Shown here: piece by piece, positions 1 through 29,211 of the stretch | Numbering within the stretch: the first letter of the stretch is position 1 | How the letters are laid out: each line of letters starts with the position of its first letter | Made by a program: the position numbers and the translations under genes | The notes under the pieces: generated by a model | What the model was told of the DNA's origin: nothing | Database searches by the model: none | What the model saw: the letters and a program-made list of their open reading frames with translations, nothing else | NCBI GenBank assembly: GCA_949293285.1 | Contig: CASFCU010000059.1 | Span: 1-46,785, forward strand | Direction of reading: 5' to 3' | DNA length: 46,785 nt | From: an uncultured bacterium | Lineage (GTDB): Bacteria > Bacillota_I > Bacilli_A > RF39 > UBA660

Positions 1-21
1 AGTATTATATACTTTATTCAT
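1..21 (-). CDS. 5' end of a leftward gene cut by the window edge (MNKVYNT...)
   Basis: Minus strand reads AAAGGAG (plus 28-34), a 6-nt spacer, then ATG (plus 21-19) followed by AAT AAA GTA TAT AAT ACT. Only 7 codons are visible, so there is no product call. Confidence 0.3.
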
Positions 22-284
22 ATGGGACTCCTTTTATTATTGGGATTTTAATTTTATTATATCAGAAGGGTCCCATATAAGCTTAATAGAAACGAAAATA
101 AATTAGAGGAAGAAACACTCTAATTTTCTTTTGATAAAAAACTGTCCGTAACTAAGATTTGTAGTAGAGTAAAGCATAAGTGTGAGTGTCCGTCCTATTG
201 CTTTGCTTATCCCACGAAAAACCTTTTTCGTGGGGAAATTATAAATTATGAGTTAATTGTATAAATTTATATAAATTAACTTAG

Positions 285-420
285 GATTATACTGATAAAC
301 TGATTTGGCTTTTGTCCCCTAACAACTTCAATGGCACTAATGCTAACGTGTTCAAGGTGAATCCTGCCTCTAGTTTGAACAACAACAACGTCGATAACGT
401 TGATGGGGCCCGCGCCCGGC
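285..420 (+). repeat. DGR template repeat (TR) candidate with 3' G/C-only clamp
   Basis: Local GC island in AT-rich DNA. An open frame from 285 reads DYTDKLIWLLSPNNFNGTNANVFKVNPASSLNNNNVDNVDGARAR. 11 of 33 codons between 321 and 419 are AAY (Asn). The TR ends in GGGGCCCGCGCCCGGC (405-420). There is no start codon or RBS, so it is not a gene. The exact 5' boundary is uncertain. Confidence 0.75.
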
Positions 421-442
421 AATTTCCTTTAATTCATTTACG

Positions 443-480
443 GCTATTTTTATAGTAATAATGCTATGGTGAAAAATAGC
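443..480 (+). other. Stem-loop in the TR-avd spacer
   Basis: GCTATTTTT (443-451) pairs with AAAAATAGC (472-480). An inner ATAG/CTAT pairing lies in the loop. Confidence 0.6.
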
Positions 481-539
481 TATTCACTAAAGTGAAACAA
501 GTATAATTCTATGGGATATTCCCAAAAAATCTTGTAGAC

Positions 540-581
540 AAACTGCTTATAGTTAGTAAAGTTTGAAAACTATAGCAGTTT
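540..581 (+). other. Long stem-loop just upstream of the avd RBS
   Basis: AAACTGC-T-TATAGTT (540-554) pairs with AACTATAGCAGTTT (568-581). The stem is about 13 bp with a one-base bulge. Confidence 0.6.
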
Positions 582-604
582 TAGCTACAACTGTGAGGTT
601 TACT

Positions 605-967
605 ATGAATAACAATACAAGTAGTAAAGATTTTAGTTTATATAACAAAGTAGTTGATTTGGATAATTATATTAATCGATATATAGCAAACAACATTTCA
701 TCTGTTCGTAGAGATATTAGAATACACCTTTTAGATGAGATATATAATCTTTCAAAAAATATTTTTTATGCATTATATAATAAGGGAAATATTAGAATGA
801 AATATTTAATAGAATTACAAGTTAATATTTCTTTAATTGATATGTTTCTTTTGAAACTAAGAAATCTTAACACAGTTAAAAAAAGTTACATAGACGTTTC
901 TATATCTAAACTTAGTGATATTAAAAATATTATTTACGGTTGGAAATTTAATGAAGAAAAGAAATAG
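605..967 (+). CDS. avd: Avd-like accessory variability determinant (four-helix-bundle protein)
   Basis: 120 aa, basic and helical, with the pattern of four-helix-bundle / 23S-IVS-type proteins (ends ...IKNIIYGW). GAGG lies 7 nt upstream of ATG 605. It overlaps the RT start by 17 nt. The TTG at 563 in the ORF track lies inside the hairpin and is unlikely to be the start. Confidence 0.8.
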   Translation: MNNNTSSKDFSLYNKVVDLDNYINRYIANNISSVRRDIRIHLLDEIYNLSKNIFYALYNKGNIRMKYLIELQVNISLIDMFLLKLRNLNTVKKSYIDVSISKLSDIKNIIYGWKFNEEKK

Positions 968-2438
968 TATTACCTATGATACAGAACTCTCTATTGATAA
1001 TATTTATAACATGTGGAATGTCATTCGTAAGACTTGTAAAAACAAAAAAGCTCTTTTGAATTTTTCTATGAATTTATCTACAAATATTGACTATATCTAC
1101 AAAGCATTAAAAAATAGAACATATAGTCCTTATAAATATAACACTTTTATGATTTTTGAACCTAAAGCAAGACTAGTTATGAGTAGTTCTATTCGTGACA
1201 AAATAGTTAATCATTTTGTAGCTAATTATTATCTTATTCCCTACTTAGAAAAAAGTCTCATTGATGTGAATGTGGCTACTAGGAAAAAAAGGGGAAGCTC
1301 TTATGCTATGTACCTTATTAAAAAGTATTTTAATAAAATATTAATTAATAATGCTAAAAAAGAAATATATTGTTTAAAGATAGATATTAGTAAATATTTT
1401 TATTCTATAAATCACAATATACTAATAAAAAAAATAGAGAAAAAAATTTATGATCAAGATATTATTCATTTAGTTAAGTTGATAATTAGTGAGACTAATA
1501 AAGATTATATTAATGATTCTATTTATCAATATAATAAAATTTATAATACTGATATTCCTTTATATGGGAATGATAGAGGATTGAGTATTGGTGCTATGAC
1601 TAGCCAATTTTTAGCCATTTTTTATCTTAATGATTTGAATCATTTTATTAAAGAAAAATTAAAATGTAAATATTACGTTAGATATATGGATGATCTAATA
1701 ATTTTAGACTGTGATAAAGAAAAACTTAAAGAAATTTGGAAATTGATTGTATTCGAAATTGAGAAGTTAGAACTTTCAGCAAATAAAAAAAGTAATATTT
1801 ATAACTGTAGTAAAGGTTTTACTTTTTTAGGTTATAAATATAAGATAACTAACAATAAGTTAAAAATTAGCTTTAATCGTAAAACTTATTTTAAAATTAA
1901 AAAGAAATTAAAGACTCTATATAGATATGATAGGATTAAGTTTAATAAATCACTTGATAGCTATTGGGGATACTTTAGTAATTGTTATACTTTAAAGAAA
2001 GGAAGTTTTAAAATGAAATTAATAGATATCTATAAGTTGTATAAAGAAAACCATTTCGATACTTTAATCATTGTTAAAGATGGAATTTTTTATAAAAGCT
2101 TTTATAATGATGCTAAGATATTGTGGTATTTATTTAACTATAAATATATTAATGATTCTGTCTCTTTTGGTAATGTTCCTTATGATAAAGTAGTTTCTAA
2201 ATTGAAAAGAAATGATATTAATTTTATAATTTTTGATAAAGAAAAAGAGCTTTTATCCTTAATAAAAGAAGATAATACCTATCATTCTTACTCTGATTTG
2301 GCAAATAAATCTTATGATAAAAGATTAAAAATTGATTTACTTTTGAAAAAGTTAGAATTTATTTTAGATAATAATTATAGTTCTTATCAAAAGATAGATT
2401 CTTATCTTGAAAATTTTAATTCATCTTCTGATAATTAA
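951..2438 (+). CDS. DGR-type reverse transcriptase with C-terminal MutS domain-I-like extension
   Basis: RT motifs present: FEPKARLVMSSSIRDKIVNH, ATRKKRGS, KIDISKYFYSINH, GLSIGAMTSQ ([I/L]GxxxSQ, the DGR hallmark) and YVRYMDDLIIL (YMDD). The C-terminal ~140 aa (nt 2013 onward) align to the MutS N-terminal domain. The start is taken at ATG 951 (MKKRNSITYD). Confidence 0.9.
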   Translation: MKKRNSITYDTELSIDNIYNMWNVIRKTCKNKKALLNFSMNLSTNIDYIYKALKNRTYSPYKYNTFMIFEPKARLVMSSSIRDKIVNHFVANYYLIPYLEKSLIDVNVATRKKRGSSYAMYLIKKYFNKILINNAKKEIYCLKIDISKYFYSINHNILIKKIEKKIYDQDIIHLVKLIISETNKDYINDSIYQYNKIYNTDIPLYGNDRGLSIGAMTSQFLAIFYLNDLNHFIKEKLKCKYYVRYMDDLIILDCDKEKLKEIWKLIVFEIEKLELSANKKSNIYNCSKGFTFLGYKYKITNNKLKISFNRKTYFKIKKKLKTLYRYDRIKFNKSLDSYWGYFSNCYTLKKGSFKMKLIDIYKLYKENHFDTLIIVKDGIFYKSFYNDAKILWYLFNYKYINDSVSFGNVPYDKVVSKLKRNDINFIIFDKEKELLSLIKEDNTYHSYSDLANKSYDKRLKIDLLLKKLEFILDNNYSSYQKIDSYLENFNSSSDN

Positions 2439-2542
2439 GTAAAGACAAGCAGTTGAAAAGCAAATGAAAGGTAAGATAACCCAAAGAGATATGTTTGACA
2501 AAATTATTCATATATATTAGAATTTATTATAGGAGGAATGAT

Positions 2543-3061
2543 ATGGATAATAGAGATAAAAAGAATATAATGATTGTTGCCCTTTTAGTAGCAGTAGTAT
2601 TTATGTCAGTAGGATATGCCTTATTGTCAGCTCAATTAGATGTAAAAGGAACGACCACTATAGTAGACCCTGTGTGGGATGTCAAAATTACCTCTATAAG
2701 CAGTACAGAAACAGAGGGAAATGCAACTAGTATCGATGCAATGGTTGAAAACAGATTCTCTGCAAAATTCAATGCCCAATTTCAAGCACCTGGAGATAAA
2801 ATAACATATGTAGTGAATGTTAAAAATGAGGGAACGATAAGTGCAGTATTGAATTCAATTACAATTACTCCTGATGATTATGCAGATGGATTTATAGTCT
2901 ATACAATAGATGGCTTAGAAGTAGGGGATACATTGAATGTCGGAGAAACTAAAGTATTTACAATTTCTGCAACCTACAATGAAGAGATAGAAGGAACACC
3001 ACAAGAGGAAGATTTGACAAAAGAGATCACTTTAATACTAGATTATGTACAAAATAAGTAA
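2543..3061 (+). CDS. Small secreted beta-rich protein with N-terminal signal-anchor; candidate SipW substrate (TasA/camelysin-like by context)
   Basis: AGGAGG at 2531-2536 precedes ATG 2543. The N-terminus is basic, followed by a hydrophobic segment and then ...GYALLSAQLDVKGT. The gene sits directly upstream of a SipW-type peptidase gene. The family call rests mainly on context. Confidence 0.5.
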   Translation: MDNRDKKNIMIVALLVAVVFMSVGYALLSAQLDVKGTTTIVDPVWDVKITSISSTETEGNATSIDAMVENRFSAKFNAQFQAPGDKITYVVNVKNEGTISAVLNSITITPDDYADGFIVYTIDGLEVGDTLNVGETKVFTISATYNEEIEGTPQEEDLTKEITLILDYVQNK

Positions 3062-3127
3062 TTTTTTATAAGTTACTTTTTTTTTGCTCATTTATGTTTT
3101 ATAATAATTTCATAATAGGAGCTTGTT

Positions 3128-4273
3128 ATGAAAAACAGAAAAATTATTTTAATGTACATTATTTTATTAGTATATATCATAGCTAATAATTATGTAATCA
3201 TATCACCATTTGCAAAATATTATAATTTATTAATAAATCCATTATTATTACTAATAGTAGCAATGATTTTCTACGTATTATTTCCAAAAAAACAAAGAAA
3301 AATTAGATATAAATATGAACAAATTCAAAATATTATTATCATCTTATTCATCTATTCTATGATATATTTCTTATCAGGATTAATATTTGGGTATGAATAT
3401 TCTATATATGGAAGGGACCTATCTACGATAATTCAAAATATTTATTCCTTCATAACGGTTATTATTTTAAGTGAATATATAAGGAACAAATTAGTAGTAA
3501 ATACTGAAGATAATGCTATAAATAATGTATTAATATCCCTTTTTTTATTATCTATGAGTACAAATTTTACTTATTTAGTCAACCATCTTTATCCCTTTTC
3601 TACAGGGTTTAAATATATGACCAGTAATTTTATACCCGATTTAGTTACAACCTTTATACTCACTTACCTATCCAGAACAACAGGATTAAAAGCTACAATA
3701 ATTTATAGAAGTTGGCTTAGATTAATACCAATAATATTACCAATACTACCTAAATTACCTTGGATACTAACATCTATAATAGGAATTGTTCTCCCCATGG
3801 TAATATACTTTAATATAAGTTATCTAACTATGATGTACGATAGAAAAAATCGAAGATTTTCATTAAATAAAAATGATAAGGGAACAACAATTCTAACAAT
3901 CATAGTAATCATGTTCGTTCTCTTTATCCTAAAAATATTTAAATATTTTCCAATTGCAGTATTATCTAACAGCATGGAAACCACTTTTTCAAAAGGAGAT
4001 GCTGTAATTATCGAAAAGATTGATAAAAATTCTTTGGGACAATTAAAAGTATATGATATAATTTATTATAAGAAAAATAATAAACTTATCATACATCGGA
4101 TAGAACAAATCGAAGAAATAGACAATAAGAGAGTATTTATTACAAAAGGGGACAACAATCCTACAAAAGACCCTTGGTATGTATATGAAGAAGATATCAT
4201 TGGCATTATGAAATTCAAAATACCATGTCTGGGATATCCAGCAGTGTGGTTTAATGAAGCAATAAATAATTAG
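3128..4273 (+). CDS. sipW: Polytopic membrane domain fused to SipW/Sec11-type signal peptidase I
   Basis: The C-terminal ~110 aa read AVLSNSMETTFSKGDAVIIEK...IIHRI...ITKGDNNPTKDPW, matching S26B-type Ser/His/Asp boxes. The N-terminal ~270 aa are multi-TM. The RBS is TAGGAG. Confidence 0.8.
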   Translation: MKNRKIILMYIILLVYIIANNYVIISPFAKYYNLLINPLLLLIVAMIFYVLFPKKQRKIRYKYEQIQNIIIILFIYSMIYFLSGLIFGYEYSIYGRDLSTIIQNIYSFITVIILSEYIRNKLVVNTEDNAINNVLISLFLLSMSTNFTYLVNHLYPFSTGFKYMTSNFIPDLVTTFILTYLSRTTGLKATIIYRSWLRLIPIILPILPKLPWILTSIIGIVLPMVIYFNISYLTMMYDRKNRRFSLNKNDKGTTILTIIVIMFVLFILKIFKYFPIAVLSNSMETTFSKGDAVIIEKIDKNSLGQLKVYDIIYYKKNNKLIIHRIEQIEEIDNKRVFITKGDNNPTKDPWYVYEEDIIGIMKFKIPCLGYPAVWFNEAINN

Positions 4274-4281
4274 GAGGTTGC

Positions 4282-5346
4282 ATGAAAAATAAAGAAAAAA
4301 ATATATTAAAAAGAACAATTCTAAGAAGTATATTATTAGTTTTATCTATTTTCTCTTTAGTAATAGGAATTTTAATAACAGTAGAAGGACTAACAAATAA
4401 CAAAGAAAAAAAAGAAAACATTGTAAATTATGAAACAGGTGGTAAGATTGAATATAATGTTACCTTAAAAGACAATGATTTCTATGACCTGGAAGATATC
4501 AATACGAAAAATATAATAAGCAAATATTTAAATACATTAGATATAAACTTTAAATACGAGTTTTCTTCATCAAAAGCTTTACATTCCAATGCCACGTATT
4601 CTTTAAAAATGTATTTAATAAATAGTTATACACAAAATAACAACGAAGAAGAATTATGGAGAAAAGAATATGAATTATTACCAGAAACAAAAATTACAGA
4701 AAATAAAGCGGTAGTATACTTTGAAAAACAAATTAGTATTAATTATGACGAATATAATGAAATAGCTAGAAAATTTAGAAGTGAATCTGGAATATTAACA
4801 AATTCTTATTTACAACTGGAATTTTCAATAAACAATGAATTAATGGAAGAAACAAAAAATATTAGTTTCGGTGACAATCATGTTTTAGTAGTAAAAATTC
4901 CATTACTAGAAAATATAACTTCTATAGAAAAATTAGGAGAATTTAATGAAAAAGAAAACTTATATAATATTGAAAAAATAGATACCAATTATCTTCAATT
5001 ATCGATTGGCATTTTACTATTAATTGTATCTATTGCCTTTATGATAACTGCTGCAAGAATGTTTATAAATATAAATGAAGTCTCTAAATATATTACGGAA
5101 CAAGGAAGAATATTAAAAAGATATGGAGATGTAATTGCAGAAACCACCACAAAGCCAGATTTAAATAATTTAGATGTAATGGAAATAACAAATTTTATAG
5201 ATTTAATAAATATTGAAGATGAGCTTAGAATTCCAATATTATTCTATGAAAATATCAAAGGAAAAGAGTCTTGGTTTATCATTATTCATAATACGGAGGC
5301 CTATAGATATATTTTAAAAGCAAAAACGAAATCAAAGAAGACCTAA
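4282..5346 (+). CDS. Two-TM membrane protein of unknown function (N-terminal TM, ~220-aa outside domain, second TM, ~100-aa C-terminal domain)
   Basis: The RBS AGGAGG lies 5 nt upstream. The gene is 8 nt after the sipW-like stop, so probably in the same operon. I recognise no catalytic motif. Confidence 0.6.
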   Translation: MKNKEKNILKRTILRSILLVLSIFSLVIGILITVEGLTNNKEKKENIVNYETGGKIEYNVTLKDNDFYDLEDINTKNIISKYLNTLDINFKYEFSSSKALHSNATYSLKMYLINSYTQNNNEEELWRKEYELLPETKITENKAVVYFEKQISINYDEYNEIARKFRSESGILTNSYLQLEFSINNELMEETKNISFGDNHVLVVKIPLLENITSIEKLGEFNEKENLYNIEKIDTNYLQLSIGILLLIVSIAFMITAARMFININEVSKYITEQGRILKRYGDVIAETTTKPDLNNLDVMEITNFIDLINIEDELRIPILFYENIKGKESWFIIIHNTEAYRYILKAKTKSKKT

Positions 5347-5356
5347 CAAGGGAACT

Positions 5357-5390
5357 AAAAAGAATGTTTTTAATACATTCTTTTTATATT
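5357..5390 (+). terminator. Rho-independent terminator of the sipW-locus operon
   Basis: AAAAAGAATGT (5357-5367) pairs with ACATTCTTTTT (5375-5385). A T-run follows. Confidence 0.7.
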
Positions 5391-5752
5391 ATGAGAAAAT
5401 ATTCTATTTTGTTTAATAGTTAGTATATAAAAGAGTATTTGCTATATTTTCTGTTTTTTGGCATAATCGTTTATGGAAGAAATTCTATTTGCAAAGAACT
5501 CTCATAACTAGACATATTAGATTAGTTCTATGAAAATAACTATCGAGAAAAAATCATCCATGATAATGACGATAATTTAAAATCACATTAAGTATAGTTT
5601 TTAACTTGTTTCAACTTTTTAAATACAAAGAGCTTTATTCTATAGTATTATCATTAAAAAAATAATTAACAATATCTTCAGTAATCATCTATATTTATCT
5701 CAATAAATAATAACAAAATAATATCTATAAGTTAAAACGAAGAATAATTCTT

Positions 5753-5780
5753 GAATATTTCAAGTACTTAATCATAGAAT
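5753..5780 (+). promoter_or_regulatory. Candidate sigma-E-type sporulation promoter for spoIVA
   Basis: GAATATT (5753-5759), 13 nt, then CATAGAAT (5773-5780), about 28 nt before the ATG. This resembles the mother-cell sigma-E consensus (ATATT...CATACA-T). spoIVA is sigma-E dependent in B. subtilis. Confidence 0.4.
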
Positions 5781-5808
5781 TAATTGAATAGTTAAGGAAG
5801 GGGTATAT

Positions 5809-7284
5809 ATGGATAAACAAGAAATCATTAAAAATATTGCTTTAAGAACAGGTGGAGATGTATATTTAGGTGTCGTTGGGGCAGTTAGAACAGGGAAAAG
5901 TACTTTTATAAAAAAAGTAATTGAAACACTTGTAGTTCCAAATATAAAAGATGAATATGAAAGAAAAAGAGCTTTAGATGAAATTCCTCAAAGTGCAAGT
6001 GGAAAAACCATCATGACGATAGAACCAAAATTTGTTCCCAACACTGCAGCAAAAATTAACATCGATGATTTCAGTTGCAACATAAGACTAATTGACTGCG
6101 TTGGCTATTTAATTAAAAATGCCAAAGGAGCAGAAGATGAAAACGGACCACGAATGGTAAAATGTCCCTGGTATGATGATGCTATTCCTTTTGTGGAAGC
6201 AGCAGAACTAGGAACAGAAAAGGTAATCAAAGAACATTCTACTATTGGAATTGTTATAGCAACAGATGGCTCTATTGGAGAATTTGAAAGATCTGATTAT
6301 ATAGAAGCAGAAAACAGAGTAATCAGTGAATTAAAAGAAATAGGAAAACCATTTATTGTAATATTAAATTCAACTCATCCAATGTTACCAGAGACAGAAA
6401 AACTTGCTGAAAATCTAAGAGAAGAACACAACGTTCCCGTAATACCAATGAATATCGATACCATGAATGAAAAAGATTTATATAATGTTTTAAGAGAAGC
6501 ACTATATGAATTCCCGATACTAGAAGTAAGAGTAAACATGCCTGAATGGATTGCTATACTAAGTTCCAACAATAAAGTAAAACAAAGTTATATTGATTCT
6601 ATTAGGGCAAGCGTTGGAGAGGTAGATAAATTAAAAGATATTGAAAATATAACAAAAGGATTTTTAGATAATGAAAATATCTCTAGAGCATATCTATCAG
6701 AAGTAGATCCATCTACGGGAGTAGTAACAATAAACTTAGAAGCACCTAGAGAACTATATAACGATGTATTAAAAGAAATTATAAAAATAGATGTCAAGAA
6801 CAAAGCGGAATTATTGTCATTGTTCCAAGAATATAATGAAGCCAAAAATGAATATGATCAAATAAAATATGCCTTAAAAATGGTAAAACAAACCGGTTAT
6901 GGAGTAGCCTCTCCTACATTGAAGGATATGAAACTAGATACACCAGAGATTATAAAACAAGGTAGCAGATATGGAATAAAACTAAAAGCTGTAGCACCAT
7001 CTATTCATATGATAAGAGTCGATGTAAATTCTACATTTGAACCGATAATAGGAAGTGAACTTCAAAGCAAAGAACTAATCGACTATCTTATGAAAGATTA
7101 CGAAAATGATCCACAAAACATTTGGAAAAGTGAAATATTTGGCAGAAGTTTAGATGTGATTGTTCAAGAAGGTATCCAATCCAAAATATCATTAATGCCA
7201 GATAATATCAGATACAAATTAAGTCAAACTCTTACAAAAATTGTAAACAAAGGTTCAAATAATTTAATAGCAATAGTAATATAA
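5809..7284 (+). CDS. spoIVA: Stage IV sporulation protein A (spore coat morphogenetic ATPase)
   Basis: 491 aa with a Walker A in GVVGAVRTGKSTFIKK. Strong full-length resemblance to SpoIVA. RBS AAGGAAGGGG. Confidence 0.95.
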   Translation: MDKQEIIKNIALRTGGDVYLGVVGAVRTGKSTFIKKVIETLVVPNIKDEYERKRALDEIPQSASGKTIMTIEPKFVPNTAAKINIDDFSCNIRLIDCVGYLIKNAKGAEDENGPRMVKCPWYDDAIPFVEAAELGTEKVIKEHSTIGIVIATDGSIGEFERSDYIEAENRVISELKEIGKPFIVILNSTHPMLPETEKLAENLREEHNVPVIPMNIDTMNEKDLYNVLREALYEFPILEVRVNMPEWIAILSSNNKVKQSYIDSIRASVGEVDKLKDIENITKGFLDNENISRAYLSEVDPSTGVVTINLEAPRELYNDVLKEIIKIDVKNKAELLSLFQEYNEAKNEYDQIKYALKMVKQTGYGVASPTLKDMKLDTPEIIKQGSRYGIKLKAVAPSIHMIRVDVNSTFEPIIGSELQSKELIDYLMKDYENDPQNIWKSEIFGRSLDVIVQEGIQSKISLMPDNIRYKLSQTLTKIVNKGSNNLIAIVI

Positions 7285-7394
7285 AAATTATGTAAATATG
7301 CTGAAAAATAAGTACAAAACATTGATTTTAACATTAAAATATGATATTTTGTATATGTAAGCATAATGTGCTTAAAAAGGATGGAGGTAATATA

Positions 7395-7667
7395 ATGAAA
7401 AAAGCAGAACTAGTAGAAGCAGTAGCTGAAAAAACTGGTCTAACTAAAGCAGATGCAACTCGTGCTATCGATGCAGTATTTGAAACAATTTCAAAGGCTT
7501 TAGAAAATGGAGAAAAAGTACCAGTAGCTGGATTTGGAACTTTTGCAATTTCTGAGAGAAAAGCAAGAGAAGGTCGTAATCCTCAAACAGGTGAAAAAGT
7601 TAAAATAGCTGCAAGAAAAGCTGTAACATTCAAAGCTGGAACAGCTCTAAAAGAAGCAGTAAATTAA
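7395..7667 (+). CDS. hup: DNA-binding protein HU
   Basis: 90 aa: MKKAELVEAVAEKTGLTKADA...GFGTFAISERKAREGRNPQTGEKVKIAA. GGAGG RBS. The ORF-track start at 7341 is upstream of the RBS. Confidence 0.95.
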   Translation: MKKAELVEAVAEKTGLTKADATRAIDAVFETISKALENGEKVPVAGFGTFAISERKAREGRNPQTGEKVKIAARKAVTFKAGTALKEAVN

Positions 7668-7675
7668 TAAAACAT

Positions 7676-7707
7676 AAAAGAAAGGTAATAATAACTTTTC
7701 TTTTTTT
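7676..7707 (+). terminator. Rho-independent terminator after hup
   Basis: AAAAGAAAGG (7676-7685) pairs with CTTTTCTTTT (7695-7704), including one G-U pair. A T-run follows. Confidence 0.65.
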
Positions 7708-7851
7708 ATATACTAGGAATTTGCTTTGCAAAAAAATATAAAAATTAACTAATAATCATTTATATGAACGTTTGTTTGTGATAAGATTAGTTTATCAAAG
7801 AAGAGAGATGATAGGATGAAAATATGAAAAGGTTATGTCTTTAGCATGTAT

Positions 7852-8183
7852 TCAAACATTTCACAAGAAGAAATAATACGGCCAACATTTATGCCTATTA
7901 GTATAATCGAAATAGATTTAGGCATAAAAGAATTAATAGTAACAAGCCATAATGAGAAAATAGAAAATAAAATAAAAGACTAATACAAATAGATAGATTT
8001 TATCCAAATAGTCAAATAGGTAATATATGTAATTATCAAAATAAAGAGGTTAAAGATTTAAATATCAGAAATTGGGAATGTCCAGTATGTCATACAAATC
8101 ATGATTGTGATTTTAATGCAAGTGTTAATATAATGTTTGAAGGATTAGTACAATATATGAAAGGAATAGAACAAAGGATATAA
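7852..8183 (+). pseudogene. tnpB: Decayed IS200/IS605-family TnpB (OrfB) remnant: internal deletion plus frameshift
   Basis: Fragment 1 (7852-7983) encodes ...IIEIDLGIKELIVTSHNEKIENK* (RuvC-I motif). Fragment 2 (7995-8183, a different frame) encodes RFYPNSQIGNICNYQNKEVKDLNIRNWECPVCHTNHDCDFNASVNIMFEGL...* (zinc ribbon plus RuvC-III). The central ~250 aa are missing. Confidence 0.8.
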
Positions 8184-8408
8184 ACATAAATTTTGCCAAA
8201 AAAATAGGATAGCAACTATCCGACATTGGTCTATGGAGAAGTCTCAGATTCTTGAGAAGTAGAAAAAGATTACCGTGAGGTAATCTAATGATTATTTGGT
8301 AGAAATGAACAGAAGAATGCAATAATAAATATGATAAATTATGGGATTGCTTTCAATATCTTTAGTTTTTATTATATTTTTGTTATAATACTAGTGGTGA
8401 TAAAAACA

Positions 8409-9506
8409 ATGTTAGAAACATCGTTAAAAGTATTAGAAAAAATAGAAGAAAAAGGATATATTGCTTACATAGTAGGTGGTTTTGTAAGAGATTACATATT
8501 AGGAATAGAATCAGAGGACGTTGACATTGCAACCAACGCTACTCCAAAACAAATAATGGAAATTTTCGATAACAGTGTCCTTCCTAACGAAGAATACGGT
8601 GCGGTGACTTTATACGTGAAAAATTCAAGATTTGAAGTCACCACCTTCCGGAAAGAAATTAGATATATCAATAACAGAAAACCTATAGAAATAGAATATA
8701 TAAACGATTTATTAGAAGATCTGAAAAGAAGAGATTTTAAAATGAATACCTTATGTATGAATAAAAATGGAGAAATTATTGATTTATTGGATGGTAGAAC
8801 TGATATAGAACATAAAGTAATTAACACCGTTGGTAATAGTAACTTTAAGTTTCAACAAGACTCTCTTAGAATATTAAGAGCAATTCGTTTTGCAACTTAT
8901 CTAAACTTCAAGTTAAGTGAAGATGTAAAAGAAGCAATTATCAATAATAAAGAAGCCTTAAAAGGATTATCTTACAACAGAAAAAAACAAGAACTAGAAA
9001 AAATATTTGTCAGTCAAAATGCCAAATACGGAGTCGAGTTATTATTAGAATTAGGACTTGATGAACCACTAGAATTGTATAATTTAGAAAAAATAAATTT
9101 AAAAAGTGATATTATAGGGATTTGGGCTTCTTTAGAAGTTTCTTCAGGCTATCCATTTACCAGTAATGAGAAAAAAATAATTCAAAGAGTAAAAGAGGTA
9201 GTAAATTCAGCTATTACTAATATTTCATTGTATAAATATGGTCTTTACGTAAATCAAGTAGCTGCAGATATTATGGGAATAGATAAATTAACGGTAACAA
9301 AAGCATATGAAATGTTGCCAATAACCTCTAGAAAATCAATTAAAATATCAAGTGAAACAATAATGAACACATTAAAAAGGAAAGCTGGACCATACTTTAA
9401 AGATATATATAATGACCTGGAAACAAAAATATTAGAAGGTAAATTGAATAATAATGAAAAAGAAATCAAAAACTATATCTTAGAAAATTATAGTAAGGGG
9501 GATTGA
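8409..9506 (+). CDS. cca: CCA-adding tRNA nucleotidyltransferase
   Basis: GYIAYIVGGFVRDYILG..DVDIAT...EVTTFRKE...EDLKRRDFKMN. The start is set at ATG 8409 (MLETSLKVLEKIEE) after GGTGAT. The upstream extension in the ORF track is hydrophobic junk. Confidence 0.9.
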   Translation: MLETSLKVLEKIEEKGYIAYIVGGFVRDYILGIESEDVDIATNATPKQIMEIFDNSVLPNEEYGAVTLYVKNSRFEVTTFRKEIRYINNRKPIEIEYINDLLEDLKRRDFKMNTLCMNKNGEIIDLLDGRTDIEHKVINTVGNSNFKFQQDSLRILRAIRFATYLNFKLSEDVKEAIINNKEALKGLSYNRKKQELEKIFVSQNAKYGVELLLELGLDEPLELYNLEKINLKSDIIGIWASLEVSSGYPFTSNEKKIIQRVKEVVNSAITNISLYKYGLYVNQVAADIMGIDKLTVTKAYEMLPITSRKSIKISSETIMNTLKRKAGPYFKDIYNDLETKILEGKLNNNEKEIKNYILENYSKGD

Positions 9507-10174
9507 TGATGATGAAATATGGGAAAGTAGTCGAATTAGTAAAAGAAAAAAGTATAGTCATACCTATGTATATATATAGAATATTTCCCAAATTAGAAAT
9601 AAATTTAGAGACATTTATCTTTCTTATGTATTTAACTAGTAAAGGAGATATGCTATTACTAGATGTAAAAAAACTATCAGAAGAGTTTTCTTGTGATATA
9701 AAAAAAATAATGGGCTATATTTCTCTTTTACAAGAAAAGAAATTAATAGAACTGAAAGTAGTAAAAAATGATAAAAACATAATGGAAGAATACATATCTT
9801 TAGATTTTTTCTATGAAAAAGTATCGATAAATTTAATTGAGAATATTAACGAGGTAAAAGAAGATAATACCAATATATTTGAAATATTAGAACGAGAATT
9901 AGGAAAGCAATTAACCCCAATTGAATATGAAATAGTAAAAGCTTGGAAAGAAAGTAACTATACAGATGAAATAATAAAAGAAGCAATCAAAGAAGCAGTG
10001 TATAATGGGGTAGCAAATCTTAGATATATTGATAAAATCCTTTATGAATGGGCAAAGAAAAATATTAAAACCAAAGAAGACGTAGAGAAAAACAAAAAGG
10101 AATTTAGAGAAAAAGAGAAAAATAAAAAGATTGATGTTTTTGATTATGATTGGATGGAAGATGAAGATGCTTAA
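9506..10174 (+). CDS. dnaD: DnaD-domain replication initiation/membrane attachment protein
   Basis: C-terminal DnaD/DnaB_2 repeat: LTPIEYEIVKAWKE..IIKEAIKEAV..LRYIDKILYEWAKKNIKT. The dnaD-nth order matches B. subtilis. The start is ambiguous among ATGs at 9506, 9509 and 9512. Confidence 0.75.
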   Translation: MMMKYGKVVELVKEKSIVIPMYIYRIFPKLEINLETFIFLMYLTSKGDMLLLDVKKLSEEFSCDIKKIMGYISLLQEKKLIELKVVKNDKNIMEEYISLDFFYEKVSINLIENINEVKEDNTNIFEILERELGKQLTPIEYEIVKAWKESNYTDEIIKEAIKEAVYNGVANLRYIDKILYEWAKKNIKTKEDVEKNKKEFREKEKNKKIDVFDYDWMEDEDA

Positions 10175-10781
10175 GGAAATAGAATTTTATTTAGATGAAC
10201 TGTATCCCAATCCTAAATGTGAATTAAACTATACAAAGGATTATGAACTGCTAATTGCAGTAATGTTGAGTGCTCAAACTACGGATAAAAGAGTAAATAG
10301 TGTTACAGATATTTTATTTAAAAAATATGATAGCCTAGAAAAGCTAGCCAATGCTGATACAGAGGATATTAAACAGATTATTAAACCGATAGGAACTTTT
10401 AATAAAAAAAGTATTTTTGTAGGAGAAATAGCAAACTATTTGATTCAAAATTGTAATGGTACAGTTCCTAATGATAGGAAGAAATTAGAAGAAATTCCTG
10501 GTGTCGGTAGAAAAACTGCCAATGTTGTTCTGAGTAATCTATTTAATTATCCCGCAATTGCTGTTGATACACACGTATCTAGAGTAAGCAAAAGATTGGG
10601 ATTAGCAAAGGAAAATGATGATGTACTCACAATTGAGAAGAAATTAATGAAAAAATTTAAAAAAGAAACTTGGGCAAGAAGGCATCATCAACTCGTCTTA
10701 TTTGGACGATATCACTGTAAAGCTATAAAACCAGAATGTAATTTTTGTAAATTGAATACGATTTGTAAATACCAGAAATAG
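10161..10781 (+). CDS. nth: Endonuclease III (DNA glycosylase/AP lyase)
   Basis: ELLIAVMLSAQTTDKRVN, a HhH-GPD motif (IPGVGRKTANVV, VDTHV) and a C-terminal 4Fe-4S cluster, CKAIKPECNFCKLNTIC. Confidence 0.95.
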   Translation: MKMLKEIEFYLDELYPNPKCELNYTKDYELLIAVMLSAQTTDKRVNSVTDILFKKYDSLEKLANADTEDIKQIIKPIGTFNKKSIFVGEIANYLIQNCNGTVPNDRKKLEEIPGVGRKTANVVLSNLFNYPAIAVDTHVSRVSKRLGLAKENDDVLTIEKKLMKKFKKETWARRHHQLVLFGRYHCKAIKPECNFCKLNTICKYQK

Positions 10782-10844
10782 GAGTATCTAAAAGATGTTT
10801 ACAAATGTTAATTTATTTTCCCATACAAGATACTTTACGATAAC

Positions 10845-10885
10845 AAAGTACTAGTACAATTAATAAACTTGTACTAGTACTTTTT
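10845..10885 (+). terminator. Rho-independent terminator after nth
   Basis: AAAGTACTAGTACAA (10845-10859) pairs with TTGTACTAGTACTTT (10869-10883), a 15-bp stem. TT follows. Confidence 0.7.
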
Positions 10886-11007
10886 GTCCATTGAATAATA
10901 ATTTAAAGATATGGACAATGAAATGAATAAGCAAATCAAAAAACAGTACCATGTATAAAAGAAAATATAAATAAAAAAGATAATTCATATAATTTATTGG
11001 TGAGACA

Positions 11008-11751
11008 ATGGATAATCTAGTTTTAAGTTTTTTTATAACAGGGATTGCTGGTTTTTCCACATTACTGGGGATATTTGCAATTTTATTTGGAAAAAAAGGA
11101 AGAGAAAAATTAATATCTTATAGTTTAGTATTTTCTGCTGGAATTATGATCTTCATTTCTTTATTTGATTTAATACCGACATCTCTAAATTATCTTATGA
11201 ATTTTTATAATATCATTCCAGCTCTTATAATTATTTTTATCTTTATATTTTTTGGTGTAATATTTACTCATTTTATAAATCATTTTCTAGATAGTGATAA
11301 CAATAACCTTTACAAAGTAGGAATCATATCCATGATTGCATTAATTGTTCATAATATTCCAGAAGGTATAATCACTTTTTTAACTACAACGAAAGATTTA
11401 CATCTTGGGATATCTTTAGCCATATCAATAGCACTTCACAATATCCCGGAAGGAATTAGTATATTTATTCCTATATATTATGGAAGCAAAAATAAAAAAA
11501 AGGCATTTTTTTATACTTTTATAGCTGGCTTTTCGGAAGTATTAGGCGCCTTTATTGCATGGCTTTTCTTGTCTCGGTTTGTAAATGATTACTTTTTTTC
11601 TTTTATGTTTGCAACTACTGCTGGAATCATGTTATATATTGCTATCTATGAACTCCTACCAGAAGGACTAAAGTTTAAAAATAAAAGAATGTTATTCTTT
11701 TGGTTTATGGTAGGAATGCTAGTAATGTTAGTCAGTGAATTCATTTTATAG
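11008..11751 (+). CDS. zupT: ZIP-family zinc transporter ZupT
   Basis: Polytopic protein with duplicated HNIPEG motifs (VHNIPEGIITF, LHNIPEGISIF). Confidence 0.9.
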   Translation: MDNLVLSFFITGIAGFSTLLGIFAILFGKKGREKLISYSLVFSAGIMIFISLFDLIPTSLNYLMNFYNIIPALIIIFIFIFFGVIFTHFINHFLDSDNNNLYKVGIISMIALIVHNIPEGIITFLTTTKDLHLGISLAISIALHNIPEGISIFIPIYYGSKNKKKAFFYTFIAGFSEVLGAFIAWLFLSRFVNDYFFSFMFATTAGIMLYIAIYELLPEGLKFKNKRMLFFWFMVGMLVMLVSEFIL

Positions 11752-11755
11752 CAAA

Positions 11756-11790
11756 AGACCTATAAGTTGAAACTTATAGGTCTCTTTTTT
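11756..11790. terminator. Bidirectional terminator between convergent zupT and ponA
   Basis: AGACCTATAAGTT (11756-11768) pairs with AACTTATAGGTCT (11771-11783). It is flanked by an A-run and a T-run. Confidence 0.75.
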
Positions 11791-18343: not shown

Positions 18344-18682
18344 ATGTATCAAGAACAATTTAATTTATCTCCTAAAGACATATTAGAAAAAGAATTCAAA
18401 ATTGATACTAGGGGATATCGATTAAAAGAAGTGGACCAATATTTAGATCTTATTATTGGAGACTATGAACAATTCTTTAAAATCCTTAAACAATACGACA
18501 AAGAAAAAGAAGAACTATTAGATGAGATAATGAACTTGAAACAGGAAATTCGTAACTTAAAAATGAGCATAGAGATAGCAAAAGCTTCTGATAGTGATGA
18601 TACTAGTAAAACTATTTCTAATGTCGATGTAATAAGAAGATTATCTCAACTTGAAAAAATTGTGTATGGCAAAGATGAATAA
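18344..18682 (+). CDS. gpsB: Cell-cycle protein GpsB (DivIVA-domain)
   Basis: LSPKDILEKEFKIDTRGYRLKEVDQYLDLIIGDYE followed by a coiled coil. gpsB-rnpB adjacency matches B. subtilis. Confidence 0.85.
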   Translation: MYQEQFNLSPKDILEKEFKIDTRGYRLKEVDQYLDLIIGDYEQFFKILKQYDKEKEELLDEIMNLKQEIRNLKMSIEIAKASDSDDTSKTISNVDVIRRLSQLEKIVYGKDE

Positions 18683-19035
18683 TATTTTGGCAAACGCTAT
18701 ATTGATATAATATAGAGGAAAGTCCATGCTCACACAAACTGAAATGTTTGTAGTGTTTGTGCTAGAGGAAAAAATAACTCTAGGTAGCCTTTTGGCTAAC
18801 GGCAATGAAATAGTCTAAGTCAAACAGGATATGACTAAAGTAGTTATAAAGTGTCATAGTGACGAAGAAGCTGGAAACGGCGGAAGTGGAACGTGATAAA
18901 CCCCGCAAGTGAGAAACTCAAATATTGGTAGAGGAGCCTTAACAAAGGAATCAAACGGAGTTAAGGACTAACGAGAGTTAGTAGATAAATGTTTGCCACC
19001 TAGAAATAGGAACAGAACATGGCTTATAAAATATT
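18683..19035 (+). ncRNA. rnpB: RNase P RNA, bacterial type B
   Basis: GAGGAAAGTCCATGCTCACAC, AGTGACGAAG, GTGGAACGTGATAAACCCCGCAAGTGAGAAACTCAAATATTGGTAGAGGAGCC and GGAACAGAACATGGCTTA closely track B. subtilis RNase P RNA. P1 pairs AATATTTT with AAAATATT. Ends are accurate to about +/-5 nt. Confidence 0.95.
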
Positions 19036-27729: not shown

Positions 27730-29199
27730 TTATTTCTTTTTCGTTTTCATCGGCTTTCTCTCCACTTTGTTTGAAATATCTTCTTCTATTTTATCATCCT
27801 TTTTATTGATTTGCGTACCTTCTTCCATAGAAATATTTAAATTGTCAACATTCTCTGTAAAGCTCTTTCTCTTTTCTTTTGATAATTCTTCTCTTTTTTT
27901 TCCTTCTTTTCGATTATTATTTTTTAATGTTGTCACTAAAATATATAGATAGGTAACTACTAATAAACTACCCAAACCAATAATAATGTATTCATAAATT
28001 TTATTTTTTTCTTCGATTTCTACCTTTTTATCATTTTCTTTTTGATTAAATAATTGTAAAGTATTTTCTTTGGAATCATATTGATAAAGATTAGTAAGAC
28101 CATTTTCTATATTTGTAGCATATACTAAATAAAAATTCGATGATTCATCATTTTGATAGGCAGTAAGTTCCTTTTCATTAATTACAATTTTAACCTCTTT
28201 ATATCCTTGAGGAATTTTATTTAATTTCTCTTCTGTAACAATAATTTTATTAAAAGAGAACTCCTTATATAAAGAATAAGTATTATCCTTATATGAATAA
28301 AGGGAAACATCTCCATTTTCATCAGTAAGACCTACTAAAGTGACCTTTGTAACATTATTTATAAAAGCAGGAACATCTTCATCATTAATTTTTATAGTAG
28401 TCTCTTCATAACTAGAATTAGGAATAGTAATCAATTCCTTTTTTCTGACAACGTTATAATTTTTTCCATCTAATTCTACGACAATAGGAGAAAGCTCTTT
28501 TACCGTAACATTTAATATGTAACTTCTAGTACTTCCATTTTGTGCAGTAACTTTAATTTCAATCTTATTAATTCCTTCCACAAGTTCATGATTTCCAAGC
28601 CCTGATACAGAAGACCTAGAATCATCCTTAGCTCCAGTAATATTAATAGATCTAACGTCATTTTCCAGAGTCAACGAATATTCAAGCGTATCCTTATTGA
28701 AACCAGGAGATAGCACATACCCATCCACACCCAAACTAGAAAGATAATTATTTTTGCTGTAACTATCTTCCAATTGTTGTTGTGTAATAACCGTAATGGA
28801 TTTTGAAGTTGTCTTATTAACTGTATAAGGATTTCCATAAAAATCAATAGCTTCATTTAAAATAAAAGATACGGTAGCAGTACCACTTGCTTTTGCTTTA
28901 AACTTGAAAGTAAATGTAGTAGACTTAGTACTATCATTTTGAATAACATAAGTATTATTCAAAGTACCACTAACCAAAGTTAATTTGGAAGTATCATAAT
29001 CAAATTTATAAACTAAGCTTCCTAGCGGAGTAGAAGAAGAAACCTTAACTGTATAAGTTATTGTATTCCCAACTACCACTTTACTAGCACTAGAAGAAAC
29101 AGAAACAGAAGCACTAGCAGCACTACAAGTAGTAATATTCCAAGCATACAGCAAAGAAATGACTACTATGAAAAGAAAGTTCTTTTTTAAGAATCTCAT
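27730..29199 (-). CDS. Membrane-anchored surface protein: cohesin-like domain + cadherin-like beta-sandwich domain + C-terminal TM
   Basis: A signal peptide, then a cohesin-like module (VVVGNTITYTVKVSS..LGSLVYKFDYDTSKLTLVSG). Next comes YLSSLGVDGYVLSPGFNKDTLEYSLTL...AQNGSTRSYILNVTV (cadherin-like). Near the C-terminus is the TM IIIGLGSLLVVTYLYILV plus a charged tail. Confidence 0.7.
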   Translation of the reverse strand: MRFLKKNFLFIVVISLLYAWNITTCSAASASVSVSSSASKVVVGNTITYTVKVSSSTPLGSLVYKFDYDTSKLTLVSGTLNNTYVIQNDSTKSTTFTFKFKAKASGTATVSFILNEAIDFYGNPYTVNKTTSKSITVITQQQLEDSYSKNNYLSSLGVDGYVLSPGFNKDTLEYSLTLENDVRSINITGAKDDSRSSVSGLGNHELVEGINKIEIKVTAQNGSTRSYILNVTVKELSPIVVELDGKNYNVVRKKELITIPNSSYEETTIKINDEDVPAFINNVTKVTLVGLTDENGDVSLYSYKDNTYSLYKEFSFNKIIVTEEKLNKIPQGYKEVKIVINEKELTAYQNDESSNFYLVYATNIENGLTNLYQYDSKENTLQLFNQKENDKKVEIEEKNKIYEYIIIGLGSLLVVTYLYILVTTLKNNNRKEGKKREELSKEKRKSFTENVDNLNISMEEGTQINKKDDKIEEDISNKVERKPMKTKKK

Positions 29200-29211
29200 T
29201 TTACCTCCTTT

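What the first reader, a model, noticed from the sequence alone, without database searches (positions are those of the whole stretch)
1..604. No cognate variable repeat or target gene next to the DGR: the target is remote, inverted or lost
In most DGRs the target gene with its 3' VR lies immediately upstream of avd/TR on the same strand. Here the 284 nt upstream of the TR are non-coding and hold hairpins at 20-78, 211-234 and 251-273. The next gene, whose start codon is at 21-19, runs leftward on the opposite strand. I could not find the GC clamp, or any TR-like stretch, elsewhere in the 46.8 kb. That includes the secreted-protein genes at 2543-5346 and 27730-31266. The element therefore either acts in trans on a remote target, uses a target beyond or within the divergent gene, or is an orphan.
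Basis: seen in the sequence. Interest (0 to 1): 0.65.

Follow-up and report, generated by a model that had tools for sequence, protein, structure and literature searches.

The report
DGR target cut off by repeat element
The diversity-generating retroelement at the left edge of this contig is an ordinary one whose target gene normally lies directly upstream; in this strain a multi-copy mobile-looking element is joined 16 bases before the end of that gene, and the assembly stops inside it.

Summary
No variable repeat (VR) or second TR-like stretch exists on either strand; the best match at non-A positions is 0.40-0.53, which is chance level.

Other assemblies of the same species carry a same-strand target gene that ends at window-equivalent 172. 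These are L012 (99.3% identical over 12.3 kb), L008-L010, and Logan contigs of runs X2, X4, X5, X9 and X12. The VR lies about 45 nt before window-equivalent 157. Comparing the TR (window 305-432) with that VR, 17 of 32 A positions changed against 2 of 94 non-A positions.

- Window 157-172 is the last 16 nt of that gene (…P-FVVE-stop).
- Window 1-156 is the end of an element present in about 3-4 copies. It carries a leftward ORF start and a hairpin that sequesters its ribosome-binding site.
- The junction 156/157 is real: it occurs in three assemblies and in an unbroken unitig in run X1.
- X1 holds about one more copy of the element than runs with the intact locus, which points to an insertion.
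- Contigs end there because the element is a repeat.

I could not determine whether the target and VR survive on the far side. No VR-like contig was seen in X1.

Close relatives show target-VR-hairpin-TR-avd-RT (RT fused to a MutS-domain-I-like tail); in the one full-length case the target is pilin-like. This is an ordinary DGR and of low interest.

The parts
1..156 (-). End of a multi-copy, IS-like element, where the contig terminates. On the minus strand it holds an ORF start (ATG 21-19, MNKVYNT…), GGAG at 31-28, an extended -10-like TGATATAAT at 64-56, and a hairpin at 19-80 whose arms pair an upstream segment with the RBS and start codon.
   Evidence: - Depth is 33-86x against 8.9x for the DGR contig in run X1.
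- Four different right flanks are seen in X1 and three in X5.
- Four assemblies break at positions 1, 43, 55 and 130.
- It has no similarity to L012:986-1141, which occupies this place in the intact locus.
157..172 (+). Remnant of the DGR target gene: its last 16 nt, (CC)A TTT GTA GTA GAG TAA, encoding …P F V V E stop.
   Evidence: - Window 157-700 is 100% identical to L012:1142-1685, and ORF L012:3-1157 ends here.
- The same join is seen in L008-L011.
- The same join is seen in runs X2, X4, X5, X9 and X12.
- The C-terminal motif P-[YF]-[VI]-[VI]-[EKQ] recurs at the end of many homologues (at least 47 of the 120 listed).
211..234 (+). Conserved GC-rich hairpin about 40 nt after the target stop codon (CCCACGAAAAA-CC-TTTTTCGTGGG), with no T-tract behind it. 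It may be the target-side hairpin/cruciform of the DGR, or a terminator.
   Evidence: - It is present in relatives L020 (CCCCACGAAA-ACCC-TTTCGTGGGG) and L018 (TGCTGCGAAA-ACCC-TTTCGCAGCA), with four compensatory pair changes.
- It is not flagged as an intrinsic terminator.
251..290 (+). AT-rich hairpin (251-273) followed by the motif TTAACTTAGGATT, directly 5' of the TR. It is probably the promoter or 5' end of the TR RNA.
   Evidence: - The motif is conserved in L020, L018 and L016 (same sequence in L017), and in front of most TR cassettes of the L016 array.
- A promoter-like hit lies at 266-293 on the + strand (the count is not above chance).
305..432 (+). Template repeat (TR).
- Adenine-mutagenised span: 321-403.
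- GC-rich element: 405-420.
- IMH*-like tail: 421-432 (TR …TTTCCTTTAA against VR …TTTCCCTTAA).
- This TR allele has an extra CG in the GC element and four AAC units, where VR_L012 has five.
   Evidence: - TR against VR_L012: 17 of 32 A positions changed, 2 of 94 non-A positions changed.
- VRs of runs X2 and X3 differ from the TR mainly at A positions and from each other.
433..604 (+). Structured spacer between the TR and avd, with hairpins at about 446-485 and 541-590. A long-range pairing of 285-295 with 498-509 brackets the TR.
   Evidence: - The fold has a z-score of -4.4.
- The same elements occur with compensatory changes in L020 (ACTATTTTAGC…GCTAAAATAGT against ACTGCTTATAG…CTATAGCAGT).
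605..967 (+). avd-like accessory gene (120 aa).
   Evidence: - It has no Pfam, NCBIfam or PDB sequence hit of its own.
- It is 60% identical (E 4e-50) to L018's 123-aa protein, which matches Pfam bAvd at E 7e-6, below the curated cut-off.
- Its position and size are as expected for Avd.
951..2438 (+). DGR reverse transcriptase (495 aa) fused to a MutS-domain-I-like C-terminal part. An internal ATG lies at 2013 with its own RBS-like AAAGGAAG.
   Evidence: - Pfam RVT_1 at 7e-16 and MutS_I at 2.6e-4, above the cut-off.
- The best PDB sequence match is 8ub7_A, titled 'Reverse transcriptase', 328 aa, E 2.7e-23.
- The motifs IGAMTSQ and YMDD are in the translation.
- At least 1226 homologues were found, most of those listed about 495 aa.

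Best explanation
This is a canonical, cis-acting diversity-generating retroelement. Its native order is target gene (VR near its 3' end) - conserved hairpin - TR - avd - RT fused to a MutS-domain-I-like part.

**How it works.** The RT copies the TR RNA and misincorporates at adenines. The cDNA then replaces the VR up to the GC-rich element.

**What happened in this strain.** A repeated, IS-like element (about 3 copies elsewhere in the genome) is joined between …GATAGTCC and ATTTGTAGTAGAGTAA. That point is 16 nt before the target's stop codon and about 45 nt after the VR. Short-read assemblers cannot cross the repeat, so the contig ends inside it. That is why no VR or target is in the window. 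The DGR core in the window is intact: the TR has 32 A, avd is full length, and the RT has YMDD.

**Shown**
- The adjacent target and VR in sister assemblies.
- The A-specific TR/VR differences.
- The reality of the 156/157 junction.
- The multi-copy nature of window 1-156.
- One extra copy of the element in the run that has this junction.

**Inferred**
- That the element is a transposable element.
- That it inserted, rather than the locus being rearranged.
- That the VR still lies on its far side, which I put at roughly even odds against loss.
- That separating the VR from the conserved hairpin at 211-234 would impair retrohoming.
For: 1. **No VR in the window**.
2. **Adjacent target in the same species.** L012 is 99.33% identical to window 157-12430. 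It carries ORF 3-1157 on the same strand, ending at window-equivalent 172, with a VR at about 968-1096. Against the TR, 17 of 32 A and 2 of 94 non-A positions changed.
3. **Second strain.** L008 and L009 (TR allele B) have their own VR: 14 of 39 A and 3 of 87 non-A positions changed.
4. **Logan contigs.** X2 contig 57350 holds the VR and window 157-1200 in one piece. The flank …GATAGTCC|157 is seen in X4, X5, X9 and X12. A VR contig in X3 shows A>N changes.
5. **The junction is real.** The window, L001 and L002 all join …CTAAG|ATTTG. X1 unitig 22637 runs from 130 to 6354 unbroken.
6. **Repeat and copy number.** In X1 the 1-127 unitig has depth 32.8 against 8.89, with four flanking contigs of 10.2, 10.9, 8.89 and 6.45. 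In X5, which has the VR-type junction, depth is 19.2 against 5.69, with three flanks of 8.2, 4.29 and 5.8.
7. **Layout typical of IS ends.** A hairpin pairs upstream sequence with the RBS and ATG, and TGATATAAT sits in the loop. A second, similarly built element cuts the RT gene in L008 and L009.
8. **Relatives.**
   - L020 and L021 (RT 64% identical): a 525-aa target with an N_methyl signal, the VR, a gap of about 450 nt holding the TR, then avd and RT.
   - L018 (RT 61% identical) has the same order.
9. **DGR identity of the RT and avd**.
Against: - The sequence left of window position 1 could not be obtained. No transposase, terminal repeat, target duplication or far junction has been seen.
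- No VR-like contig at 80% or more was found in run X1 or X6. The target may therefore be deleted rather than displaced. Logan contigs show presence, not absence.
- Three of the four copies of the element abut the same TTT(G/A)TAGTAGAGTAAA. A simple random IS insertion does not explain this. It suggests site-specific insertion, or recombination between the conserved 3' ends of paralogous genes.
- This TR differs from VR_L012 by a 2-nt and a 3-nt indel. VR_L012 was therefore not copied from exactly this TR allele.
Confidence: 0.78

Rival explanations
1. The locus was rearranged rather than hit by an insertion. Recombination between the 16-17 nt shared by the target's last codons and by other loci (TTT(G/A)TAGTAGAGTAAA) moved or deleted the target. 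On this reading the DGR in this strain is a true orphan.
For: - Three of four copies of the 1-156 sequence are followed by the same 16-17 nt.
- The C-terminal P-[YF]-[VI]-[VI]-[EKQ] motif recurs at the end of many homologues, so paralogues could share this DNA.
- No VR-like contig is seen in X1 or X6.
Against: - The copy number of the 1-127 unitig relative to the DGR contig is about one higher in X1 (3.7x, four flanks) than in X5 (3.4x, three flanks; sum of flanks 18.3 against 19.2). This fits a gain of one copy better than a reciprocal exchange.
- Seventeen nucleotides is short for homologous recombination.
Confidence: 0.15
2. The left 156 nt are an assembly chimera. In the real genome of this sample the target gene is directly adjacent.
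For: - The contig ends here, in a repeat.
- Metagenome assemblies do mis-join at repeats.
- L010 joins an A-type VR to a B-type TR, which looks like such a chimera.
Against: - The same junction occurs in three independent assemblies: the window, L001 (ERZ16268175) and L002 (ERZ17292902).
- It also occurs in a k=31 unitig of run X1 that passes position 157 without a branch.
- Only 16-17 nt are shared between the alternative contexts, which is shorter than any assembler k-mer used.
Confidence: 0.04
3. This is the first reader's reading: the DGR natively has no adjacent target and diversifies a remote or inverted gene in trans.
For: - No VR lies in the 46.8 kb.
- DGRs with remote targets exist, for example Treponema (cited in PMC5758913).
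Against: - An adjacent same-strand target with A-specific VR differences is found in near-identical strains and in relatives.
- A 16-nt remnant of that gene sits in the window.
- The divergent ORF belongs to a multi-copy element.
Confidence: 0.03

Closest known systems
Bordetella phage BPP-1 DGR (mtd-VR-IMH-hairpin, avd, TR, brt)
   Same: - The RT's best solved-structure match (8ub7_A, titled 'Reverse transcriptase', 328 aa) is, from memory, the Bordetella phage bRT (E 2.7e-23).
- TR-to-VR differences are adenine-specific.
- A GC-rich element lies at the 3' end of TR/VR homology, followed by a few TR/VR-distinguishing bases.
- An Avd-like small protein overlaps the RT start.
- A GC-rich hairpin lies downstream of the VR (concept from PMC3240598).
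   Different: - The order here is TR-avd-RT, not avd-TR-RT.
- The RT carries a MutS-domain-I-like C-terminal extension.
- The target homologue next to the closest relative's DGR has a type-IV-pilin-like N-terminus, not a phage tail-fibre protein.
- The conserved hairpin lies about 100 nt after the VR, not 4-34 bp, and its loop ACCC does not fit GRNA.
MSL-containing DGRs (architecture D of Wu et al. 2018, PMC5758913; includes the Legionella DGR)
   Same: A MutS-like accessory function occurs together with avd.
   Different: In that paper MSL proteins are separate small proteins of 112-283 aa. Here the MutS_I-like part is in frame with the RT as one 495-aa ORF. This fusion is common, with at least 1226 homologues, most of those listed about 495 aa.
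DGR targets with a DUF6273 (C-type-lectin-like) domain in Faecalibacterium and other gut phages (PMC11792537, PMC10743442)
   Same: - The VR maps to the C-terminal end of a DUF6273-like region: weak Pfam hit at residues 319-365, E 0.005.
- The top BFVD fold matches of the homologue model are phage DUF6273 proteins.
   Different: - The locus here is cellular and chromosomal, next to spoIVA.
- The full-length homologues checked (P0017, P0018/L020) carry a prepilin-type N-terminal methylation motif.
- In the Tentaclin targets (PMC10743442) the DUF6273 domain and VR lie near the N-terminus.
Insertion sequences that block translation of read-through transcripts by sequestering the transposase RBS (IS10, IS50, IS200; my own knowledge, not tested)
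   Same: - It is multi-copy.
- It is polymorphic between strains.
- An ORF starts about 135 nt inside the end.
- A hairpin pairs upstream sequence with the RBS and ATG, with a -10-like box in the loop.
   Different: - No transposase sequence, terminal inverted repeat or target duplication could be examined.
- Three copies share the same 16-17-nt flank, which is unusual for ordinary IS elements.

Membership tests
Diversity-generating retroelement | Reverse transcriptase of the DGR clade | tested here: met
   - RVT_1 at 7e-16.
- Best PDB sequence match is 8ub7_A at E 2.7e-23, ahead of group II intron RTs at 7e-9.
- IGAMTSQ and YMDD are present in the translation.
Diversity-generating retroelement | TR/VR pair whose differences are concentrated at TR adenines | tested here: met
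   - This is not met inside the window.
- It is met with the VR of the near-identical strain L012: 17 of 32 A against 2 of 94 non-A positions changed.
- It is also met in L008 and L009 with their own TR: 14 of 39 against 3 of 87.
Diversity-generating retroelement | VR near the 3' end of a protein-coding target, ending in a GC-rich element with IMH/IMH* distinction | tested here: met
   - The VR ends about 60 nt before the stop of ORF L012:3-1157.
- The GC-rich element is GGGGCCCGCCCGGC in the VR and GGGGCCCGCGCCCGGC in the TR.
- The tail is TTTCCCTTAA in the VR and TTTCCTTTAA in the TR.
Diversity-generating retroelement | Avd accessory protein | tested here: inconclusive
   - There is no direct family or PDB hit.
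- It is 60% identical to a homologue that matches Pfam bAvd at E 7e-6, 26.9 bits against a cut-off of 40.
Diversity-generating retroelement | Variable region on a C-type-lectin-like (or Ig) fold | tested here: inconclusive
   - The DUF6273 hit is weak (E 0.005, below the cut-off).
- The model of homologue P0018 has mean pLDDT 70.
- No significant PDB match was found.
- The best BFVD matches are phage DUF6273 proteins: E 7e-4, and TM 0.59 on a 206-aa target.
Diversity-generating retroelement | Hairpin/cruciform downstream of the VR (PMC3240598) | tested here: inconclusive
   - A covarying 10-11-bp GC-rich hairpin with a 2-4-nt loop is conserved in the window, L020 and L018.
- It lies about 100 nt after the VR and its loop is ACCC, not GRNA.
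- Its function was not tested.
Insertion sequence / transposable element (window 1-156) | Several copies per genome with different flanks, and presence/absence polymorphism at a site | tested here: met
   - Four flanks in X1 and three in X5.
- The DGR-side copy is present in X1, the window, L001 and L002.
- It is absent in X2, X4, X5, X9, X12, L008-L010 and L012.
Insertion sequence / transposable element (window 1-156) | Encodes a transposase or recombinase; defined ends (inverted repeats or hairpins) and a target duplication | not testable with these tools
   - Only 7 codons of the ORF are in the window.
- Scans of GTDB genomes, IMG/VR, plasmids and phages with the element's sequence found nothing useful.
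- The JGI metagenome scan, made with a TR/VR pattern, returned only chance GC-rich hits, so this species was not found there.

The most novel reading that the evidence does not exclude
The sequence at 1-156 is the end of a site-specific mobile element that homes to the conserved last five codons (P|FVVE-stop) of this pilin-like, C-lectin-tipped gene family. Three of its four copies abut the same 16-17 nt. At the DGR locus the element separates the VR from its conserved downstream hairpin and from the TR-avd-RT unit. On this reading it acts as a natural, strain-polymorphic uncoupler of hypermutation. A second, similarly built element that cuts the RT in another strain would then be part of the same pattern of IS-mediated switching-off of the DGR.
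Probability: 0.12. Interest if true: 0.5.

Novelty: new member of a known kind. Interest (0 to 1): 0.22.

Why it matters
- **As a caution.** A DGR that seems to lack a target at a contig edge should first be suspected of truncation at a repeat. Here a 16-nt stub of the target ORF and sister assemblies settle the point.
- **Biology.**
  - The DGR sits on the chromosome of a chicken-gut Firmicute.
  - It diversifies the C-terminal tip of a protein. That protein's full-length homologues include several with a prepilin-type signal, among them the target next to the closest relative's DGR.
  - The locus is repeatedly hit by repeat elements in natural populations: at the target's 3' end in one strain and in the RT gene in another.
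  - If the insertion uncouples the VR from the DGR, strains with and without it form a natural experiment on the cost and benefit of hypermutation.

Tried and rejected
**Searches and steps that led nowhere**
- GTDB species genomes were scanned with an A-to-N TR/VR pattern and with the hairpin pattern of the element. Both gave 0 hits, so this species or locus is not in that collection.
- JGI metagenomes were scanned with the VR 3' pattern. The 4 hits were all from DNA of 66-74% GC and matched only the 22 nt, so they are chance.
- IMG/VR was scanned with the hairpin pattern: 0 hits.
- Plasmids and phages were searched by blastn with window 1-175. There was no phage match, and the only plasmid matches were 49-nt hits in two Staphylococcus plasmids (E 3e-3), which I take as chance.
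- Rfam was run on window 1-620 and on the whole window. Nothing relevant was found at the left edge; the only family hit is RNase P at 18682-19031.
- Exact look-up of the partial target proteins failed because they are not in the protein collection.
- No target homologue above 64% identity is in the 5.8-billion-protein set. This species' target gene therefore seems never to have been assembled full length.
- The fold search of the whole homologue model against the PDB gave nothing significant.

**Readings considered and rejected for window 1-156**
- Group II intron: there is no GUGYG at the end, and the ORF starts too close to the end.
- Fold-back assembly artefact: window 1-42 is not the reverse complement of 56-97.

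Full report
**What is in the window**

The left edge carries a DGR core on the + strand:
- a TR at 305-432;
- a 120-aa avd-like gene at 605-967;
- a 495-aa RT at 951-2438, with an RVT_1 domain and a C-terminal MutS-domain-I-like part.

The RT's best solved-structure relative by sequence is 8ub7_A, a 328-aa 'Reverse transcriptase' (E 2.7e-23). That is well ahead of group II intron RTs. The avd-like protein has no family hit of its own. It is, however, 60% identical to a homologue that matches Pfam bAvd below the cut-off.

I scanned both strands of all 46,785 nt with four TR sub-segments, scoring only non-A positions. Nothing exceeded 0.40-0.53, against 1.0 for the TR itself. The repeat finder also found no second copy.

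**Where the target is**

Exact look-ups of Avd and of the RT variants in its 90% cluster returned other assemblies of the same locus. Three of them (L001, L002, L003) stop at window positions 43, 55 and 130. Together with the window, four assemblies break within 130 nt of each other.

Four others continue leftwards into a same-strand ORF: L012, L008, L009 and L010.
- L012 is 99.33% identical to window 157-12430, and 100% identical over 157-700.
- Its ORF 3-1157 (384 aa, cut by the contig end) stops at window-equivalent 170-172.
- Window 157-172 (A TTT GTA GTA GAG TAA) is therefore the last 16 nt of that gene.
- TR 305-432 aligns to L012:968-1096. Of 32 TR adenines, 17 differ in the VR. Of 94 other positions, 2 differ, and one of these is the T/C that distinguishes the tails after the GC-rich element.

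A second strain (L008-L011, 95.6% identical over 157-700) has a different TR allele. In L008 and L009 its own VR follows that allele at non-A positions, with 14 of 39 A and 3 of 87 non-A positions changed.

VRs seen in Logan contigs of runs X2 and X3 again differ mainly at A positions, and from each other. The element has therefore been active in this species.

**What window 1-156 is**

Laying Logan contigs of public chicken-gut runs on the window gave the following:
- **Depth.** Positions 1-127 have 2-4 times the depth of the DGR contig: 32.8 against 8.89 in X1, and 19.2 against 5.69 in X5.
- **Flanks.** Several long contigs share about 112-156/160/173 and then continue into different sequence. 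There are four such flanks in X1, one of which is the DGR, and three in X5, none of which is the DGR. The summed flank depths match the depth of the shared unitig.
- **Junction types.** In X2, X4, X5, X9 and X12 the sequence before position 157 is …GGAACAG(T/C)AGATAGTCC, the target gene. In X1 a unitig runs from 130 through 157 to 6354 without a branch.

The junction …CTAAG|ATTTG is therefore real in some populations (X1, the window, L001, L002) and absent in others. The run with the junction has about one more copy of the repeat. This is the signature of a polymorphic insertion of a multi-copy element, and it explains why assemblies end there.

On the minus strand the element has an ORF start (ATG 21-19, GGAG 31-28). 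A hairpin at 19-80 pairs an upstream segment with the RBS and start codon, and TGATATAAT sits in its loop. From my own knowledge, this layout is typical of IS ends that block translation of read-through transcripts.

I could not obtain any sequence left of position 1, so the transposase is unseen and the IS assignment is an inference. One feature is not explained by a random insertion: three of the four copies are followed by the same TTT(G/A)TAGTAGAGTAAA. The C-terminal P-[YF]-[VI]-[VI]-[EKQ] motif ends at least 47 of the 120 listed target homologues. These may therefore be the 3' ends of paralogues hit at the same position, or recombination at that short shared sequence.

**Does the target survive in this strain?**

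This is not settled. At 80% likeness, no VR-like contig was laid on the TR in X1 or X6. VR contigs at roughly the same depth as the DGR contig were seen in X3 and X5 and in X2. I put simple displacement and loss at roughly even odds.

**The other hairpins**

- **211-234.** This hairpin lies about 40 nt after the target stop. It is conserved with four compensatory pair changes in relatives L020 and L018, has a conserved …GAAAACCCTTTC… centre, and has no T-tract behind it. It resembles the GC-rich hairpin/cruciform required downstream of the VR in BPP-1 (PMC3240598). However, it sits about 100 nt from the VR rather than 4-34 bp. In this strain the insertion would separate it from the VR.
- **251-273.** This hairpin, with the following TTAACTTAGGATT, is conserved directly 5' of the TR in all relatives examined. 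It is probably the promoter or 5' end of the TR RNA.

**Relatives and target type**

The closest RT relatives (61-64% identical) with enough flank show the same order.
- L020 and L021 have a 525-aa target, 57% identical to the L012 fragment, with a prepilin-type N-methylation motif. This is followed by the VR, about 450 nt holding the hairpin and TR, then avd, then the RT with the MutS_I-like part.
- L018 has the same arrangement.

On the target itself:
- The VR region gives a weak DUF6273 hit.
- An AlphaFold model of homologue P0018 (mean pLDDT 70) shows a long N-terminal helix followed by a β-sheet. From my own knowledge this resembles a pilin fold, but no pilin matched in the fold searches.
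- The model's best matches in the viral structure library are phage DUF6273 proteins: E 7e-4, and TM 0.59 on a 206-aa target. The PDB search gave nothing significant.
- DUF6273 is described as C-type-lectin-like, and in the Faecalibacterium phage DGR targets the VR maps to its C-terminus (PMC10743442, PMC11792537).

MutS-like accessory proteins co-occurring with avd are a known DGR architecture (PMC5758913). Here the MutS-like part is fused to the RT, and the family has at least 1226 members.

**Verdict**

This is a canonical DGR, a new member of a known kind. The missing target is explained by a real, strain-polymorphic junction with a repeat element 16 nt before the target's stop codon, and by the contig ending in that repeat. 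The interpretation (trans-acting, inverted or orphan by nature) is not supported for the lineage. It survives only in the narrow sense that in this genome the target is displaced or lost.

Noticed in passing
L016:227-3598 (relative; RT P0129, 63% identical to the window RT); avd-proximal part also in L017: A tandem array of at least 7-8 TR cassettes with a period of about 384 nt lies between the 3' end of a target gene (VR at L016:43-152) and avd.
- Each cassette has the conserved hairpin plus a TTAACTTAGGATT-like motif (variants in some units), a TR-like stretch of 113-133 nt (GGCTTTGTCGCCT … CGGGGTCCGTCCGGATTTTCAC), and the structured spacer.
- The first TR matches the VR with A-only changes.
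- The other TRs have different interiors with 27-33 A each.
- The avd-proximal unit has only 5 A.
- All share the same end homologies, so they could be alternative templates for one VR.
   Followed up: partly
window 305-432 compared with L008-L011: The two TR alleles of this species differ at 17 of 130 TR positions but at only 14 of 1689 flanking positions (Fisher p about 1e-12). Allele B has 39 A against 32 in allele A. The TR therefore evolves much faster than its surroundings.
   Followed up: partly
L008:2359-2455 and L009:2297-2381 (window-equivalent 1975): In the allele-B strain the RT ORF is cut to 345 aa just before the MutS_I-like part. The cause is a junction with another element, whose end has the same layout as window 1-156: arm, TGATATAAT, RBS, and an arm over the ATG, reading MKKEYA…. 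Two independent assemblies show it.
   Followed up: partly
window 405-420 and 378-389: This TR allele has an extra CG in the GC-rich element relative to every VR seen and to TR allele B. The number of AAC units varies: 4 here, 5 in VR_L012, and 3 in a run X4 contig, which has 3 nt left out at 378.
   Followed up: partly
L010:146-272 compared with L010 TR: The VR of L010 follows TR allele A at non-A positions, but the same 1.4-kb contig carries TR allele B. This is either a metagenome chimera or recombination between strains.
   Followed up: no
window 433-604: The spacer between the TR and avd is strongly structured (z -4.4). Its hairpins are conserved with compensatory changes in L020. A long-range helix pairing 285-295 with 498-509 brackets the TR.
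   Followed up: partly
window 2543-5346: Directly downstream of the DGR lie a 172-aa protein with an N-terminal hydrophobic, signal-like segment, a 381-aa SipW/archaeal-type signal peptidase I with a long membrane N-terminus (TIGR02228, 3.8e-26), and a DUF5305 protein, followed by spoIVA. Many target homologues carry a camelysin/TasA-type (Peptidase_M73) N-terminus instead of a prepilin motif.
   Followed up: no
L013:10001-11587 and L015:10001-11560: The closest full-length homologues of the target by coverage (P0017 at 59% and P0019 at 54%, both pilin-like) are not next to any RT. The protein family is therefore much wider than its DGR-linked members.
   Followed up: no
window 18682-19031: Bacterial RNase P class B RNA, 287 bits. 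It is the only Rfam family that reaches its gathering score in the window.
   Followed up: no
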